From assembly GCF_054482595.1 (NCBI RefSeq), contig NZ_CM137008.1: a DNA stretch of 64,000 nucleotides, one strand, 5' to 3'. The position numbers and the translations under genes were made by a program. The first letter of the stretch is position 1; each line of letters begins with the position of its first letter. The notes beneath the pieces are model-generated. The model had not been told where the DNA came from and ran no database searches. It saw only the letters and a program-made list of their open reading frames with translations. Below are positions 54,152 through 59,827 of the stretch, piece by piece.

Positions 54152-54266
54152 TGAGGGACGTATTTGTATTAGTCGCGACTTGATCTGACACATGGCCTTG
54201 AAAGGTTGAGAGTTACCGGTTTTGATATGAGTGTCGAATCCTTATCCAAAACAAGAGGTAACTCTC

Positions 54267-54690
54267 ATGCTTCATACTGCCAATCCCGTCATCAAACACA
54301 AAGCCGGTTTGCTCAATCTGGCTGAAGAACTCAGCAACGTATCAAAAGCCTGTAAAATCATGGGCGTTTCGCGTGATACGTTTTATCGTTACCGCGAACT
54401 GGTCGCTGAAGGCGGTGTGGATGCGCAGATTAATCGTAGTCGCCGCGCTCCTAACCTTAAGAACCGTACCGATGAGGCAACTGAACAGGCTGTTGTTGAT
54501 TACGCCGTCGCTTTCCCGACACATGGTCAGCACCGGGCCAGCAACGAGCTGCGTAAACAGGGGGTTTTTATCTCCGACAGTGGTGTCCGTTCTGTCTGGT
54601 TACTCCATAACCTTGAGAATCTCAAAAGACGATACTGAACAAATTTTATCAGGTGACGTTCCGTAAAAAGTTGTATGGAGTTCTCGATGC
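54267..54690 (+). mobile_element. decayed DDE (integrase-core) transposase gene remnant, IS481/IS3-superfamily-like, with an internal deletion
   Basis: ATG 54267 MLHTANPVIKHKAGLLNLAEELSNVSKACKIMGVSRDTFYRYRELV... is an HTH N-terminal domain ending at TGA 54636-54638. A different frame continues LNKFYQVTFRKKLYGV (54635 onward), which is typical of the extreme C-terminus of rve-domain transposases. The catalytic core is missing and I recognised no inverted repeats. Confidence 0.55.
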
Positions 54691-54786
54691 AGTCGGCGCG
54701 ACTATCAGTACCCCCGCTGAACCCTGGACTATCGGGCCGCCGTACTGGGGCATGTCACCCTGGCGTGCCGCTGGTTTTCCGCTAAT
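54691..54786 (-). pseudogene. orphan rhs 5-prime fragment (32 codons of the PAAR-like N-terminus) with ATT in place of ATG
   Basis: The minus strand reads [34 protein letters not shown]. The intact rhs at 59827 reads [32 protein letters not shown]. It is preceded by an SD-like agagga. Similarity ends where the transposase remnant begins. Confidence 0.8.
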
Positions 54787-55152: not shown

Positions 55153-55644
55153 TTACTCTGCACAAGCATCAGGCAATCCAGCTCCAATATTTGTTATAAA
55201 ATAATGCGTAACATTAATTTCACCAACAAAAAAAAGATTTACGCTATCCCCTTGCCCTGGTATTTTACCATATTTACACCACACTTTTTTTGTATCTGGA
55301 TCATTCTTTGATACGATTTTCGCCACTTGTTCCCTGGCCCTCACCGTCAATGTTTTCTTAAACCTCCCCCCATCATCGATTGTTAGGGAAAAATAAGAAA
55401 AAAAATAATCATCTTCTACATTTGTGGATATTGATATATCCACCGCTACGTGCGGAAAAAAATCTGGGAGCCATGTAAAAACTCCATCATTTTCTGGTAT
55501 TGCCATATAGTTTATGTAATGCTTACTTACAAGAGATTCATCTTTGTGTAAATAAAGATAAGTAGTCACGCATAAAAAAACAACGATTATAATAGCAAAA
55601 ATAAATATTACCATCTTTGAGATGTTACTTGAGATAGCCACCAT
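55153..55644 (-). CDS. putative Rhs-toxin immunity protein, N-terminally membrane-anchored
   Basis: 163-aa ORF overlapping the rhs 3-prime end by 20 nt (alternative ATG at 55614). It has a hydrophobic N-terminus [22 protein letters not shown] and shares the AT-rich composition of the rhs tip. I recognise no family. Confidence 0.7.
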
Positions 55645-58600
55645 CTTGTAAAGCCTTTATCGTTTTTTTATGCTCTGGATTAATATAATCAATACATCTA
55701 TTTGAGCAATCTTGTGTTAATGGACATGTCAACCCATGTTCATTTACAGCCAAGTCTTTTTTATTATCTTCAATCATCTCAGAATGGGATAACTTTACTT
55801 TTCTGCCGTACATACCGAACATATTTAACCCGTAATCTCTAATCTCTTTTTCATAACCCAGCCCTTTCGCCGATCGGCTAACACCAGCGTCATTTAATTT
55901 AGACACTCGACAAAATGCCATACAATGGAAAAATTGATCAGTCCCACCTAAATTTAATCTCTTCATATCATCATAAGTATCAGATAATATATCCCATGCT
56001 CTTTGATGGTTTAGTTGTTCTTTTTTTCGCATTAACGCTACATCTGCAGGACTTAACCCTAATGGATCAATACCATTCACCGGATACGCATACAGACTCC
56101 ATCCCCCCGCCAGCCCAATCGGGTCCTGAGTAATATATCGTCCCAGCAACGGATTGTAGTACCGGTTCCGGTTATAATACAGCCCCGACTCCTCATCATA
56201 CTGCTGCCCTGGCAGACGGTACGGCTGATACACATGATGCGGGTTCTCCTCATTAAGCTGGTTGCCCCATTCATCATATTCCGCGCTCCACGCCGTATTG
56301 CCGTCTTCGCTGATAAGCGCCAGCGGCAGTCCCCGGTGGTCGCAGTGATAAAGATGAGCTTTTCGCGCCGGTGTGTATTCCGGCTCCACCTGTCTGGCCA
56401 GTTGCTCCACCGTCAGCCCGCACTGCGCAAGCCACGCCCGGCTTTCACTGCTCACGCGGTCTGCCCGGATTTCTTCCTCCAGTCTGTCCAGCAGCCGCAC
56501 CAGTTCAGCCGGAAATACCACGCCGTGCCCGTCCTCGCTCCCTTCCTGCTGCAGCTTCTCCGCCAGGCTGCGGCGCTGCGCTTTCTCCCGCTCGCCGTTG
56601 TCTGTTTCGATGCGGATGAGCGGCGCGAAGCTCCCCGGCTGATATACCGTCTGGATACGCGTGGTGTCGGTCTGTACCGTCGTCAGCCGGTCGCCGTCCC
56701 ACCCGTACCACGTCACCTCCGGTTTCCGCGACAGCGACATCCATCCCGTCAGGTCACGCTCGCGACGCCACACCCGTTTCCCTGTCCGGCGACCCAGCGG
56801 GTCGTAAAGGTATCGGCTCTCGACCAGCGGCTCCTCATATTGGATACGGATGTAATGGACCAGGCGGTGCAGGCTGTCGTAATGGTAGTGATGGGTGCGC
56901 TCGTCGTCCGTCCGTATCACACCCGCCGGGATGCGGTCCGTCTTCTCCGTCAGTCTGCCGTATTCATCGTAGTGGTAAACATAGTGCGCATCCTTCGCGA
57001 TGCGGTTATCCGGCCACACTGTGAGGGTACTGTCCGGGTGCAGCTCCGGGTCCGGCAGGCGGTTTCCCGCCGGGTCGGTGGCATACGGGATGCGGATGTC
57101 CAGGTCCGGTGCGAGGGTACGCACGCTCTCCAGCCTGCCCGTGGCGCTGTAGCCGTATTCCCGCGTCTGTCGCGGGCCGCTGATGCGCACCAGGTCGCCG
57201 TTGTCATTCCACCCGTAGTCACGGTCATACACCAGGCTGTTCAGGTGCTGGCTCTGTAACTGGCCTGCGGGGGTGTATGTGCTGGTCAGTTTATATGCGG
57301 CATTACTGCCTGCCATGCTGCCAAAGCTGCGCACCGTCTCCCGGTGCATGCGGTCGCGCGTGTACTCCAGCAGCGGCGTGTCGCCAAGCTTCATGCCCGC
57401 CAGATAACCGCTGCCGTAGGTCAGCCACTCCACCGGCGGCAGGCTGTCCGGCGTGACGCGGTTTGCCAGCCCCTGTTCGTTGTAGGCGTGTGTTGTCTCA
57501 TGCTGCCACAGCAGTTCCCCCGTCTCCGGGTTCTCCACCGTCTGCCGTTCGCCGGTCAGGCGGCCCTTATCGTCGTAGCCGTAGTGGACAGCGACACGGT
57601 GGCCTTCGCTCAGGTGGCTGATGTCTGTCAGCCAGCCGTGGTCATCATACTGCCACTGCTCTGCCGGTTCGCCGTTCACCGTGCGGTGAGTGATACGGTC
57701 CGATTCATCGTAGTACCAGAGGGTGACAAGCCCCTCATCTTCACTCTGCGTGAGTTTTCCGGTCAGGTCATAATGATAACGCTGCGTCCGCCCGTCAAAG
57801 CCGCCCTGCTGTACCAACCGGTCCAGCGCATCGTAGCTGAAGTCGCTGTGGCTGCCGTTCTCGTTAGTCAGACTGATGACACGTCCGGCAGCATCGTACT
57901 CCATACTGCGCGTCAGCCCGCCCTGCGTGGTGCTGACCGCCTTTCCCCACGCATCGTACTGTGTCTCGCTCCGGTTGCCGTCCGGGGTGATAACGGCAGT
58001 CAGGTCGCCTGCGGCGTTGTACTCATACTGCGTTTCACGGCCCTGTGCGTCTTTCACCGAGGTTAACCGGCCACGGTTGTCATAGTGGCGGTAAAGGCTG
58101 ATACCTTCCTCGCGGTGAACCGCCGTCATCTGGCCGAAGCGGTCGTATTCATAGCGGGTCTGGTAGCCCGAGCAGTCGGTGAACGCCAGCAACTGACCGT
58201 AGCGGCTCCACGTCATCTGCCGGGTGCTGCCCGTCGCATCTGTTGTCGTGGCCGGTAATTCACTGTGCGCATCATCATAGCGGTAGCGTACTGTCTCCCC
58301 GCTGCGCGATGTCTCCGTTACCAGCCTGTCCAGTTCATCATATGCCCGGCGGCTCTCCAGCCCGTCCGGGGACACCACCGCCGTCAGCTGGTTCCCGTCG
58401 TTATAGTAAAATTTCGTCTCCCGCCCGTCCGGTGTGGTGATGTCCGTGATATCGCCGGACACCACATTCAGACCGTACTCTGTCCGCCGTCCCGCCGCGT
58501 CCGTCTGCGCCGTGAGCCTTCCTGCCGCGTCATACCCGCTGTGCGTGACGCTGCCATCCGCCAGTTCTTTTTTCACCACCCGTTTCAGCCCGCCTTCACC

Positions 58601-59827
58601 TTCTGTATGCAGCACCTCACGCCGGTTCAGGCTGTCGGTGACGGTGATGCGGTCCTGCTCATACTGGTAGCGGTAACTCAGGCCTGCCGGGTTAAGCTGC
58701 TCCACCACCCGCCCGGTATCGTCGTAGCGGTAGCGCATCTCCGGCCTTCCCGCATAACGGTGCCCCACCATCCGGCCCGGGTGCTGCGCGTCATACGTGA
58801 AAGCGCGCACCTGTGTCCCGCTGCGGTCATATACCGCCAGCAGTTCACCGGCTTCCGTATACGTGTACCGCGCCAGTGGCGCTCCGGGCAGGCTCTCCGG
58901 GTATGCCGGGTCGTGCATCAGCCACACCGCCAAAAGGCGGATACCCCTGTCGGGGCCGTATTCGGTACCGGGCAGTGTGTCGGGGAACGCTGAGGCTGAG
59001 AGAGGGCGGGGTGTGTCAGGGGAAGATAAGGAAGCGGTGCGCTGTTTACGGGCCTCTTCCGCACGCTGCGCCTGCGTGGTCAGCACCAGACGGAACTCCC
59101 GCCCGGCACCGTCCGTCACGCCGGTGATTTCCCCGGCCAGGTCACCGGCGGCCTCACGCCGGTACGTCAGCGTCCGCCCGAAGCGGTCTGCCAGCCCGGT
59201 AAGCACCCGGTACGGCGGCAGCGGCGCTGGCAGTACGTCCTCAGCACCCGGCACCAGCTCTGACCACCCCAGTATCCACCACGGCCCCTGTGCGCTGTTG
59301 GTCGCCAGGTAAAGATGCGGGCTTAACCGGATATCCGGCGGCAGCGACGCCCACAGCCGTGCCAGCGTATGGCCGTCCGGCTGCGTTGCCTTACCGCCAC
59401 GCACCAGCCACAGGGACTCGCTGCGGCTGTACACCGCCTCACCCGGCAGCAGCGGCTCAAAGTGAATGCTCCGTCCGCCGTTGTCGTTGAGTACCAGTGC
59501 ATCATCGCGTATCTGTAAGCGGATATCAGAAGGCGCTTTCCAGCCGGGGCCAAAAATCCCCACCGGTGCAGGCGTCTTCGTCCGGTAGCTGCTGTAGGTG
59601 CGGGAGAGAATGAACGGCAGCGGGCCGGGCAGCGCAAGGTCCGTCTCGCCGGGCAGCACCTTCGCCCCCAGCAGCGGATTTACCGGGTTGCCCGAAGTCA
59701 TCCCGCCCGGACACACCGAGCACGCCACGCCAGTTGGCGCGCCAATTCTTACACCTGCCGAACCCTGGACAATGGGACCGCCATACTGAGTCATATCTCC
59801 CTGACGCGCCGCTGGTTTTCCGCTCAT
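55625..59827 (-). CDS. rhsD: Rhs-family polymorphic toxin (PAAR-like N-terminus, YD-repeat shell, DPLGL cleavage motif, variable C-terminal toxin domain)
   Basis: 1400-aa ORF with N-terminus [11 protein letters not shown]..., many YD repeats and core end ...[13 protein letters not shown] (56054-56068), followed by a 142-aa AT-rich tip. It lies between ybbP and mnmH, the K-12 rhsD position, so the symbol is positional only. Confidence 0.93.

What the first reader, a model, noticed from the sequence alone, without database searches (positions are those of the whole stretch)
55628..56068. The Rhs C-terminal toxin domain resembles the vertebrate serum amyloid A signature
After the core-terminating [10 protein letters not shown] motif, the composition switches from GC-rich to AT-rich and the last 142 aa form the variable tip. 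Within it, [25 protein letters not shown] (55925-55999) aligns with one gap to human SAA1 [24 protein letters not shown], which I quote from memory. Ten positions are identical, including the Y-x-DM, N-x-x-G-[ST]-D and FH elements, plus several conservative pairs. A later [13 protein letters not shown] echoes SAA ADQAANEWG. The tip also has paired Cys (FFHCMAFC and [11 protein letters not shown]) that SAA lacks. An SAA-like helical domain delivered as an Rhs payload has no experimentally defined toxic activity that I know of. SAA is lipid- and membrane-active, which would fit the membrane-anchored partner ORF downstream.
Basis: partly seen in the sequence, partly recalled or inferred. Interest (0 to 1): 0.75.

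Follow-up and report, generated by a model that had tools for sequence, protein, structure and literature searches.

The report
SAA-like toxin tip on E. coli RhsD
The last 142 residues of this E. coli Rhs protein are a real bacterial relative of vertebrate serum amyloid A used as an interbacterial toxin with its own membrane-anchored antidote, but both the resemblance and the toxin family are already published and only the biochemical activity is still unknown.

Summary
The 142-aa, AT-rich tip after [10 protein letters not shown] (55628-56053, minus strand) matches Pfam SAA (E 1.6e-4, below the gathering score). It belongs to a family of at least 117 clusters, and 65 of 97 members scanned hit Pfam SAA. 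A profile of that family hits solved SAA chains at 1e-15 to 1e-12. A confident AlphaFold model (pLDDT 96.6) finds only SAA1 and SAA3 as convincing Foldseek matches.

This is the 'prok-SAA' family of the Lipocone superfamily (Burroughs, Nicastro and Aravind, eLife 2025). That paper already describes prok-SAA as a polymorphic-toxin tip on RHS and T6SS proteins. The SAA likeness of the orthologous O157:H7 RhsD tip was reported in 2020 (PMC7216683). The tip is the K-12 ylbH type and occurs in about half of complete E. coli genomes.

New here:
- The downstream ORF (YbbD family) is the conserved partner in at least 8 genera. It always has an N-terminal TM helix or lipobox, which points to action in the periplasm.
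- The closest solved non-SAA structure is BteO, a periplasm-acting B. fragilis T6SS effector that binds OmpA. Its experimentally essential residues have the same motif spacing as the tip's invariant H43, E70, D96 and D100.

The mechanism is unresolved: lipid head-group phosphoesterase or OmpA binder. Novelty: already known.

The parts
55625..59827 (-). Full-length Rhs polymorphic toxin gene at the rhsD locus (1400 aa plus stop)
   Evidence: ORF. Pfam hits: RHS_repeat 2.8e-73, DUF6531 1.5e-18, RHS core PF03527 1.8e-15. Same locus as K-12 rhsD and Sakai ECs_0560, between ybbP and mnmH.
59459..59827 (-). N-terminal PAAR-like segment plus DUF6531 'RHS header' (aa 1-123); presumed T6SS spike-loading module
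   Evidence: Pfam DUF6531 covers aa 46-123. PAAR_motif is only a weak hit, E 0.043 at aa 3-20. T6SS loading is inferred, not shown.
56054..56083 (-). [10 protein letters not shown] core-terminating motif (aa 1249-1258), the expected autoproteolytic release site of the tip
   Evidence: Position. The same DPxGL precedes the domain in many relatives. Cleavage is inferred from established Rhs and Tc-toxin biochemistry.
55628..56053 (-). Prok-SAA (Lipocone, SAA-Wnt clade) toxin tip, 142 aa, 35% GC
   Evidence: Pfam SAA E 1.6e-4. 117 relatives found, and 65 of 97 scanned hit Pfam SAA. The family profile hits SAA PDB chains at 1e-15 to 1e-12. AF2 pLDDT is 96.6, and the Foldseek top 7 are all SAA1 or SAA3.
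55925..55927 (-). His43 of the tip (aa 1301, FFHC motif); the helix-2 His of the Lipocone pocket
   Evidence: Invariant in 42 relatives. Aligns to the His of SAA YFH and to the FRH His of Min-Wnt, which is BteO H144.
55844..55846 (-). Glu70 of the tip (aa 1328, KE motif); the helix-3 Glu. Asp73 follows three residues later.
   Evidence: The only column invariant across all 97 aligned relatives. Aligns to SAA ARE and to BteO E168.
55733..55768 (-). Helix-4 motif D96-N-K-K-D100-L-A-V-N104-E-H-G107 (the sNxxG motif of the SAA-Wnt clade)
   Evidence: D100, N104 and G107 are invariant and D96 is at least 90% conserved. The D-x3-D-x3-N-x2-G spacing is the same as BteO D187/D191/N195/G198, by my residue counting on the alignment.
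55153..55644 (-). YbbD-family immunity gene (163 aa plus stop). It overlaps the rhs stop by 20 nt and has an N-terminal TM anchor at about aa 11-31 (55552-55614).
   Evidence: ORF. NCBIfam NF011298 2.2e-112. Homologues sit directly downstream of tip homologues in 8 other genera, with a TM helix or lipobox.

Best explanation
**What it is.** The last 142 aa of this RhsD-type protein are a prok-SAA toxin domain. Prok-SAA belongs to the Lipocone superfamily, SAA-Wnt clade, and is a true bacterial homologue of vertebrate serum amyloid A.

**Proposed sequence of events.**
1. The Rhs shell encloses the tip and releases it by autoproteolysis at DPLGL|S (inferred).
2. The PAAR-like N-terminus loads the protein on a T6SS spike (inferred).
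3. The tip reaches the periplasm of a neighbouring cell. There C44/C48 and C116/C120 form disulfides that staple helix 2 to the short fifth helix (inferred).
4. The tip damages the cell envelope through a pocket lined by H43, E70, D73, D96, D100 and N104.
5. The YbbD-family protein encoded 20 nt into the end of rhs is the cognate immunity protein. It is anchored in the inner membrane with its domain in the periplasm.

**Most likely chemistry, by analogy only.** Cleavage or exchange of a phosphate-linked head group on a periplasm-facing lipid, such as lipid II or another undecaprenyl-(di)phosphate intermediate. This is what the lipocone toxin TelC does.

**Confidence by step.**
- Homology and toxin-immunity identity: about 0.9.
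- Periplasmic site of action: about 0.75.
- Enzymatic lipid-head-group mechanism: about 0.4.
For: **Homology.**
- Pfam SAA is the best hit, and BLASTP to SAA1 gives E = 2e-5.
- A two-sequence profile found 117 clusters among 1.84 billion proteins.
- 65 of the 97 members scanned hit PF00277, the best at 2e-25.
- One of the hits, P0079 (E = 4.9e-9), contains the sequence MCC5846437.1 from the published Prok-SAA list.
- The family profile hits SAA chains 7zh7 at 1e-15 and 4ip8 at 1e-12.

**Fold.**
- The AF2 model has pLDDT 96.6 and six helices.
- The Foldseek top 7 are SAA1 or SAA3, at probability 1.00 and TM 0.69-0.72. Every other hit has probability 0.14 or lower.

**Pocket.** D39, H43, E70, D100, N104 and G107 are invariant, and D73 and D96 are at least 90% conserved, in sequences only 23-53% identical to the tip. 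These are the His(H2)/Glu(H3)/Asp(H4)/sNxxG positions that define the Lipocone active site (PMC12419801).

**Toxin context.**
- The tip follows an RHS core and a DPLGL motif, with a GC drop at the junction.
- Many relatives also follow a DPxGL motif or carry RHS domains.

**Immunity and periplasm.**
- In Azoarcus, Snodgrassella, Yokenella, Aggregatibacter, Halomonas, Neisseria, Rodentibacter and a Burkholderiales MAG, the ORF directly downstream is a YbbD homologue. It often overlaps the toxin gene by 4 nt.
- Each homologue has an N-terminal TM helix or a lipobox (VLSC, LVSC). A Cys after W/Y is at least 90% conserved (C123), and most also have a C-terminal Cys.
- The literature reports TM+Imm-SAA downstream of Prok-SAA (75 loci) and RHS (17 loci), and argues for periplasmic action.
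Against: - BteO is the only characterised toxin of the SAA-Wnt clade, and it was reported as non-enzymatic. It binds OmpA C-terminal domains.
- The tip scores below the Pfam gathering threshold.
- The clade motif sNxxGR reads VNEHGL here, so the Arg is missing.
- The PAAR hit is weak (E 0.043), and no vgrG or T6SS gene lies next to the locus.
- In K-12 and O157:H7 Sakai, ybbD is frameshifted to 86 aa although the tip is intact. In those lineages the toxin may not be deployed.
- Disulfide pairing and Rhs cleavage are inferred, not shown.
Confidence: 0.55

Rival explanations
1. The tip is a BteO-like, non-enzymatic binder. In the periplasm it uses the H/E/D/D groove to bind the peptidoglycan-binding C-terminal domain of OmpA-family proteins (OmpA, Pal, YiaD, MotB-like). 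This uncouples the outer membrane from the cell wall and causes blebbing and lysis. YbbD would neutralise the tip by occupying the same groove.
For: - BteO is a Min-Wnt lipocone by sequence (E = 1.9e-17).
- Its toxicity-essential and OmpA-binding residues are R143/H144, H167/E168, D187 and D191. In the alignment these fall on the FRH, AHE and DxxxDLxNN motifs, which have the same spacing as tip H43, E70, D96, D100 and N104.
- hhalign pairs H43 with that His and E70 with that Glu.
- Human SAA is reported to bind E. coli OmpA (Hari-Dass 2005, as cited in PMC12419801).
Against: - hhalign probability between the prok-SAA and Min-Wnt profiles is only 5.6%.
- Strict invariance of His, Glu and Asp across very diverse hosts is more typical of catalysis or metal binding than of a protein interface.
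- The BteO study excluded only glycosidase and amidase activity on peptidoglycan. It did not test lipid-linked substrates.
- The YbbD family has no detectable similarity to OmpA-C or to BtiO in PDB or Pfam, although its fold was not modelled.
Confidence: 0.25
2. The cassette is a decaying relic. The tip and ybbD are remnants of past recombination at the rhsD locus and confer no toxicity or competitive effect in present-day E. coli.
For: - In K-12 the same tip is a promoter-less orphan (the ylbH pseudogene) and ybbD is frameshifted.
- Sakai has an intact RhsD-SAA tip but an 86-aa ybbD.
- There are no adjacent T6SS genes.
- IS481-like and Rhs fragments lie just downstream.
Against: - In this window both genes are intact. 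The tip keeps every family-invariant residue, and the immunity ORF is full length, matching the 163-aa NCBIfam model end to end.
- The 163-aa immunity cluster has 1365 member sequences.
- The tip and immunity region is kept in 2727 of 5426 complete genomes.
Confidence: 0.1
3. The tip is a host-directed mimic of SAA. As suggested for EHEC RhsD in PMC7216683, it would be delivered to or sensed by animal cells and would modulate inflammation or chemotaxis through SAA receptors.
For: There is real homology and a shared fold with SAA1 and SAA3. E. coli lives in vertebrate guts. PMC7216683 raises this idea.
Against: - The same tip plus a periplasmic immunity protein occurs in bacteria sequenced as environmental isolates or metagenome bins (Azoarcus, Halomonas, a Lysobacterales MAG) and in bee-gut Snodgrassella.
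- An adjacent cognate immunity gene marks an antibacterial toxin.
- The tip has five cysteines and a different C-terminus, and lacks the SAA tail FRPAGLPEKY.
- The direction of descent inferred in the literature is from bacteria to metazoa.
Confidence: 0.05
4. The SAA resemblance is due to chance or convergence, and the tip is an unrelated helical toxin.
For: The direct Pfam score is below the gathering threshold (22.5 against 30.8 bits). phmmer of the single sequence against PDB SAA chains gives only E = 0.18 to 1.4.
Against: - There is an unbroken chain of intermediates, from the tip through its family (E 1e-42 to 1e-4) to members that hit PF00277 at 2e-25.
- The family profile hits PDB SAA at 1e-15.
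- The fold search returns only SAA with confidence.
- None of 2000 shuffles reached the observed score.
Confidence: 0.02

Closest known systems
Prok-SAA family of the Lipocone superfamily (Burroughs, Nicastro and Aravind, eLife 2025, PMC12419801)
   Same: - C-terminal tip of a polymorphic toxin (RHS, PAAR/T6SS), followed by a membrane-anchored immunity gene.
- His(H2)/Glu(H3)/Asp(H4)/sNxxG constellation.
- Four-helix cone plus a short fifth helix.
- A published family member (MCC5846437.1) is among the hits of the tip profile.
   Different: - The E. coli tip peptide itself was not found verbatim in the paper's supplementary sequence lists.
- The Arg of sNxxGR is Leu here.
- This subgroup has an extra C-terminal helix ending in GYLK.
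- Whether YbbD is their 'Imm-SAA' could not be checked. They describe four conserved cysteines, and the YbbD family has two.
RhsD of E. coli O157:H7 (z0651 / ECs_0560), described in silico in PMC7216683 (2020)
   Same: Same locus (ybbP-rhs-ybbD-ylbG-mnmH) and same tip type, about 93% identical at the protein level. That paper reports a structural match to 4ip8A (TM 0.623) and PF00277 hits in 7 PAAR-Rhs proteins.
   Different: Sakai's ybbD is truncated to 86 aa, while the window's is an intact 163 aa. That paper proposed a host-immunity role, whereas the evidence here points to an antibacterial toxin acting in the periplasm.
K-12 ylbH-ybbD orphan module
   Same: Same tip and same immunity family.
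   Different: In K-12 the tip is a start-less orphan downstream of rhsD-ybbC, and ybbD is frameshifted. In the window the tip is fused to the full-length Rhs, and the rhsD-CT/ybbC module is absent.
Vertebrate serum amyloid A (SAA1, SAA3; PDB 4ip8, 4q5g, 6pxz)
   Same: Homologous four-helix bundle. Shared Y-x-DM, N-x-x-G-[ST]-D-x-[FY]-FH, RE and ED..D..ANExG motifs.
   Different: SAA is a secreted, HDL-associated acute-phase protein without cysteines and with the C-terminal tail FRPAGLPEKY. The tip has five cysteines, a loop insertion between helices 3 and 4, two extra C-terminal helices, an Rhs carrier and an immunity partner.
BteO-BtiO of Bacteroides fragilis (Min-Wnt lipocone; PDB 9uu0; PMC12541434)
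   Different: It belongs to the sister family, Min-Wnt, with FRH/AHE/DLxNNxxGR motifs and no conserved cysteines. It is a stand-alone effector with its own TM helix, not an Rhs tip. Its immunity protein mimics the OmpA-C fold. It is reported to be non-enzymatic.
TelC-TipC of Streptococcus intermedius (prok-TelC lipocone)
   Same: Same superfamily according to PMC12419801. It is active only outside the cytoplasm, and it provides the biochemical template: a lipid II phosphatase that releases undecaprenol.

Membership tests
Prok-SAA / Lipocone SAA-Wnt clade | Four-helix cone core plus a short fifth helix packing against H2 and H4 | tested here: met
   The AF2 model (pLDDT 96.6) has helices at 2-33, 39-51, 56-78, 90-108, 116-123 and 129-137. 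The Foldseek top 7 are SAA1 or SAA3, TM 0.69-0.72.
Prok-SAA / Lipocone SAA-Wnt clade | Conserved His in H2, Glu in H3 (plus an acidic residue at the end of H3) and Asp in H4 | tested here: met
   H43, E70 and D100 are invariant, and D73 and D96 are at least 90% conserved, in 42 relatives. E70 is invariant in all 97.
Prok-SAA / Lipocone SAA-Wnt clade | sNxxGR motif in H4 | tested here: inconclusive
   The tip reads A-V-N104-E-H-G107-L. N and G are invariant, but the Arg is Leu here and in the cysteine-rich subgroup. The more SAA-like members do have GR.
Prok-SAA / Lipocone SAA-Wnt clade | Sequence-profile connection to recognised family members | tested here: met
   The tip profile retrieves P0079 at E = 4.9e-9, and P0079 contains MCC5846437.1 from the published Prok-SAA list. 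65 of 97 relatives hit PF00277.
Pfam PF00277 (SAA) strict membership | Score at or above the gathering threshold of 30.8 bits | tested here: not met
   22.5 bits, E = 1.6e-4. The tip is a divergent homologue, not a Pfam-threshold member.
Vertebrate SAA (Met-SAA) proper | Stand-alone secreted protein of about 104 aa with a signal peptide, cysteine-free, with a conserved C-terminal tail (FRPAGLPEKY) | tested here: not met
   The tip is the C-terminus of a 1400-aa Rhs protein, has five cysteines and ends in ...LQDGGYLK. Some distant bacterial relatives do keep YRPAGLPAEY (P0122).
Rhs/YD polymorphic toxin with cognate immunity | RHS repeats, RHS core domain, DPxGL boundary, a compositionally distinct variable tip, and an immunity gene immediately downstream | tested here: met
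   Pfam RHS_repeat 2.8e-73 and PF03527 1.8e-15. DPLGL is at aa 1254-1258, and GC drops from 63% to 35%. A YbbD-family ORF overlaps the rhs stop by 20 nt, and this family sits directly downstream of tip homologues in 8 other genera.
Rhs/YD polymorphic toxin with cognate immunity | Toxicity of the tip and neutralisation by the downstream protein | not testable with these tools
   Requires expression experiments.
T6SS PAAR-Rhs effector | N-terminal PAAR domain and genetic linkage to, or dependence on, VgrG/T6SS | tested here: inconclusive
   The PAAR_motif hit is only E 0.043 (aa 3-20), and DUF6531 is present. No vgrG lies next to the gene; the flanking genes are ybbP and mnmH.
Min-Wnt / BteO-like effectors | FRH, AHE and DLxNNxxGR sequence motifs; profile match | tested here: not met

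The most novel reading that the evidence does not exclude
Binding of OmpA-family proteins is an ancestral, shared property of the SAA-Wnt clade. It would be common to the E. coli RhsD tip, Bacteroides BteO and vertebrate SAA, which is reported to bind E. coli OmpA. The groove residues H/E/D/D that BteO needs for OmpA binding would be the same ones the lipocone model calls catalytic. If so, the E. coli tip and YbbD pair would be a tractable system for two questions. First, are these proteins enzymes that use OmpA as a docking or entry site, or pure binders? Second, what does vertebrate SAA actually do to bacteria?
Probability: 0.2. Interest if true: 0.7.

Novelty: already known. Interest (0 to 1): 0.35.

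Why it matters
The physiological activity of SAA has been debated for decades, and no prok-SAA toxin has been assayed. This E. coli allele has an intact toxin tip and an intact cognate immunity gene in a genetically easy organism. It is therefore a convenient handle for testing two published but conflicting models for the SAA-Wnt clade. One model is lipid head-group phosphoesterase activity (Burroughs et al. 2025). The other is non-enzymatic OmpA binding (the BteO study, He et al. 2025). The same experiments would bear on whether vertebrate SAA keeps an antibacterial activity. As a genome-scan finding, though, the SAA likeness of this very tip and the toxin family are already in the literature.

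Tried and rejected
- **Single-sequence AlphaFold of the tip.** It gave an unusable model (pLDDT 47.8). Only the model built on a 42-sequence alignment was used.
- **The search for related loci with the 42-sequence alignment.** It failed for lack of a conserved stretch and was repeated with 10 closer sequences.
- **AFDB50 fold search.** The library was not available.
- **Verbatim search for the E. coli tip peptide in the Lipocone paper's supplements.** No hit, so I cannot say the authors listed this exact protein.
- **hhalign of the prok-SAA profile against the Min-Wnt profile.** The right residues pair up, but probability is only 5.6%. The BteO link therefore rests on structure and motif spacing.
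- **YbbD-family profile against PDB and Pfam.** Nothing meaningful. A precomputed Pfam PF26610 is recorded for its relatives but is not in the Pfam copy I could scan.
- **A second SAA tip in the K-12 ybfO-ybfC orphan pair at rhsC.** No match to either profile.
- **Literature on ylbH and ybbD.** No functional study found.
- **Counting fused against orphan arrangements across E. coli.** The count was confounded because BLAST joined core and tip pieces across the K-12-type insertion. Only the presence of both arrangements is claimed.
Full report
**Locus.** The window carries the E. coli rhsD locus on the minus strand. The gene order is ybbA-ybbP, then a 1400-aa Rhs gene (55625-59827), a 163-aa ORF (55153-55644), Rhs and IS fragments, and then mnmH-allS-allA-allR-gcl. 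The Rhs protein has 15 RHS-repeat matches (2.8e-73), DUF6531, the RHS core domain PF03527 and a weak PAAR-like N-terminus.

**Checking the observation.**
- [10 protein letters not shown] is at aa 1249-1258, and the tip is the last 142 aa (55628-56053).
- 55925-55999 encodes [25 protein letters not shown].
- GC falls from 63% in the core to 35% in the tip, and the downstream ORF is 34%.
- The SAA1 string quoted from memory agrees with PDB 4ip8.

The similarity is more than chance.
- BLASTP against SAA1 gives E = 2e-5 and extends through ED..D..ANExG.
- None of 2000 shuffles reached the observed local score.
- Pfam SAA is the top hit, at E = 1.6e-4 and 22.5 bits over profile positions 9-84 of 102. 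This is below the 30.8-bit gathering score.

**Is it really an SAA homologue?**
- A word-indexed search found only close Enterobacterial copies.
- An exhaustive HMMER search of 1.84 billion cluster representatives, using a two-sequence profile, found 117 clusters. Of these, 48 had E at or below 1e-10.
- Many hits follow a DPxGL motif or carry RHS domains.
- The hits grade smoothly into sequences that look like SAA, for example P0122: ...[29 protein letters not shown]...ADMEANSWG...YRPAGLPAEY.
- 65 of the 97 members scanned hit PF00277, the best at 2e-25.
- A 42-sequence domain profile hits solved SAA chains at 9.8e-16 (7zh7), 1e-12 (4ip8) and 3e-12 (mouse SAA3, 4q5g).
- With that alignment AlphaFold gives a six-helix model with pLDDT 96.6 and pTM 0.89. 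The single-sequence model had been useless.
- The seven best Foldseek PDB hits are all SAA1 or SAA3, at probability 1.00 and target-normalised TM 0.69-0.72. Every other hit has probability 0.14 or lower.

A caveat is that AlphaFold was trained on the PDB, which includes SAA. The fold match is therefore supportive rather than fully independent. Overall, homology is secure.

**Conserved features.**
- In relatives only 23-53% identical to the tip, D39, H43, C44, C48, E70, D100, N104, G107, C116 and C120 are invariant. M30, D73 and D96 are at least 90% conserved.
- E70 is the single invariant column across all 97 aligned proteins.
- H43 lies in model helix 2, E70 and D73 in helix 3, and D96, D100, N104 and G107 in helix 4.
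- The CxxxC pairs lie on helix 2 and on the short fifth helix, which suggests two stapling disulfides. This is an inference, because I had no access to the model coordinates.

**What is already known.**
1. Burroughs, Nicastro and Aravind (eLife 2025, PMC12419801) define the Lipocone superfamily. They place animal SAA and a bacterial 'prok-SAA' family together with Wnt and Min-Wnt in a 'SAW' clade.
   - The family has a His(H2)/Glu(H3)/Asp(H4) pocket and an sNxxGR motif.
   - They report prok-SAA as a toxin tip of polymorphic toxins (T6SS/PAAR, RHS, MuF) with TM-anchored 'Imm-SAA' or lipoprotein Imm-BamE partners.
   - They predict lipid head-group phosphoesterase or transesterase chemistry acting outside the cytoplasm, modelled on TelC and PTDSS.
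   - One of my hits (P0079) contains a sequence from their Prok-SAA list.
2. An in-silico study of EHEC T6SS (PMC7216683, 2020) already stated that the RhsD (z0651) C-terminus is structurally similar to human SAA1 (4ip8A, TM 0.623). It also stated that seven O157:H7 PAAR-Rhs proteins carry PF00277.
3. I confirmed that Sakai RhsD (ECs_0560), at the same locus, carries the same tip type.
4. The tip is also the K-12 orphan ylbH, with ybbD as its frameshifted partner.
5. The tip-plus-immunity DNA occurs in 2727 of 5426 complete E. coli genomes. It is found both fused to a full-length Rhs, as here, and as a K-12-type orphan.

No experimental study of a prok-SAA toxin, or of ylbH or ybbD, turned up.

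**The partner ORF.**
- It matches NCBIfam NF011298 end to end (2.2e-112).
- It has an N-terminal hydrophobic anchor followed by a domain that looks beta-rich by eye.
- I fetched 13 genomic loci encoding tip relatives that are 44-92% identical.
- The ORF immediately downstream, often overlapping by 4 nt, is a homologue of it in Azoarcus, Snodgrassella, Yokenella (two loci), Aggregatibacter, Halomonas, Neisseria, Rodentibacter and a Burkholderiales MAG.
- These homologues are 15-32% identical. W58, P64, I70 and F85 are invariant, C123 is at least 90% conserved, and there is usually a C-terminal Cys.
- Their N-termini are either TM helices or lipoboxes (VLSC, LVSC).

A lipoprotein version can only place the domain outside the cytoplasm. 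Together with the conserved cysteines in both toxin and partner, this argues that neutralisation, and hence toxicity, takes place in the periplasm. The family has no PDB hit and no hit in the Pfam copy I could scan. I also could not establish whether it is the published 'Imm-SAA'.

**A link I did not expect.**
- BteO is toxic only in the periplasm. It causes elongation, blebbing and lysis, and it binds the C-terminal domain of OmpA-family proteins.
- BteO was called non-enzymatic because it neither digests sacculi nor acts as an amidase. Lipid-linked substrates were not tested.
- A profile built from nine Min-Wnt sequences taken from the Lipocone paper's supplement hits 9uu0 at 1.9e-17, so BteO is a Min-Wnt lipocone.
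- Counting residues in that alignment, the substitutions that abolish BteO toxicity are R143/H144, H167/E168, D187 and D191. These fall on the FRH, AHE and DxxxDLxNNxxGR motifs.
- The D-x3-D-x3-N-x2-G spacing is identical to D96/D100/N104/G107 of the tip.
- hhalign pairs tip H43 and E70 with the BteO-type His and Glu, though with low confidence (probability 5.6%).

**Mechanism.**
- Shown here: homology to SAA, the Rhs tip architecture, the conserved polar pocket, and the conserved extracytoplasmic partner.
- Inferred: autoproteolytic release at DPLGL, T6SS delivery, disulfide formation, and toxicity in the periplasm.

Two molecular models remain open. I rank the lipid head-group phosphoesterase model first, at about 0.4. 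The reason is the strict invariance of His, Glu, Asp, Asp and Asn across phyla and the TelC precedent. The BteO-like OmpA-binding model comes second, at about 0.25. Its support is the closest characterised structure, together with the reported binding of SAA to OmpA. The two models need not exclude each other.

Other readings are less likely:
- A decayed relic is unlikely for this allele, because both genes are intact. It is plausible for K-12 and Sakai, where ybbD is cut to 86 aa.
- The host-mimicry idea of the 2020 paper is disfavoured by the dedicated immunity gene and by the family's presence in bacteria sequenced as environmental isolates or metagenome bins and in bee-gut Snodgrassella.
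- Chance resemblance is excluded.

**Verdict.** The novelty rating is 'already known'. Residual interest lies in this being an intact, tractable E. coli toxin-immunity pair. It could be used to decide between the two published models for SAA-Wnt-clade toxins and, by extension, to probe what SAA does.

Noticed in passing
PDB 9uu0 / PMC12541434 (outside the window): BteO is published as a 'non-enzymatic' OmpA-binding T6SS effector with no recognised homologues. By sequence it is a Min-Wnt lipocone (profile E = 1.9e-17). The residues shown to be essential for its toxicity (R143/H144, H167/E168, D187, D191) fall on the FRH, AHE and DxxxDLxNN motifs of that family, which include the His, Glu and Asp that the Lipocone paper predicts to be catalytic. 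The BteO paper tested only peptidoglycan glycosidase and amidase activity.
   Followed up: partly
L002:7641-8131 (K-12 ybbD); L003:36236-36496 (Sakai ybbD); L005 and L006: In K-12, O157:H7 Sakai and other K-12-like alleles, the immunity gene is frameshifted after about codon 83 to an 86-aa product, while the SAA-like tip stays intact. In Sakai the tip is on a full-length RhsD. The truncated product keeps the TM anchor and the invariant W58, P64, I70 and F85, but loses C123. NCBIfam has a separate 86-aa model for it (NF011297). Whether 86 aa still protect, or whether the toxin is simply not deployed, is unknown.
   Followed up: partly
window 54231-54638 (+) and L010:3642-4172: The ylbG-like helix-turn-helix / IS481-type transposase fragment just beyond the immunity gene is 49% identical (E = 2e-45) to a transposase ORF in Snodgrassella alvi. 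That ORF lies directly after a truncated YbbD homologue next to an SAA-like tip. The orientation differs between the two loci. This may be coincidence, or it may hint that the tip-immunity cassette travels with this IS type.
   Followed up: partly
window 54691-54786 (-), by coordinate transfer from L001:10415-10510: RefSeq annotates a short partial 'hypothetical protein' pseudogene here in the near-identical strain XH990. It corresponds in position to the K-12 pseudogene ylbI and lies between the immunity gene and ylbG. I did not check whether it is the remains of a further Rhs-tip or immunity module.
   Followed up: no
window 55625-55644: The immunity ORF starts at an ATG 20 nt inside the end of rhs (...CAAGATGGTGGCTATCTCAAGTAA). 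A second in-frame ATG (M11) lies just after the rhs stop, so the true start, and with it the length of the cytoplasmic N-terminus, is uncertain.
   Followed up: no
(relatives of the 55153-55644 product): Relatives of the immunity protein carry a precomputed Pfam accession PF26610.1. It is absent from the Pfam copy available for scanning, so its name and description could not be read.
   Followed up: no
L005 (CASFSC010000074.1, labelled 'uncultured Alistipes sp.'): A 4-kb contig binned as Alistipes carries the E. coli K-12-type ylbH and ybbD sequence (92% identical to the window tip, with the same frameshift). This is most likely a metagenome binning contaminant rather than a Bacteroidota copy.
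   Followed up: no
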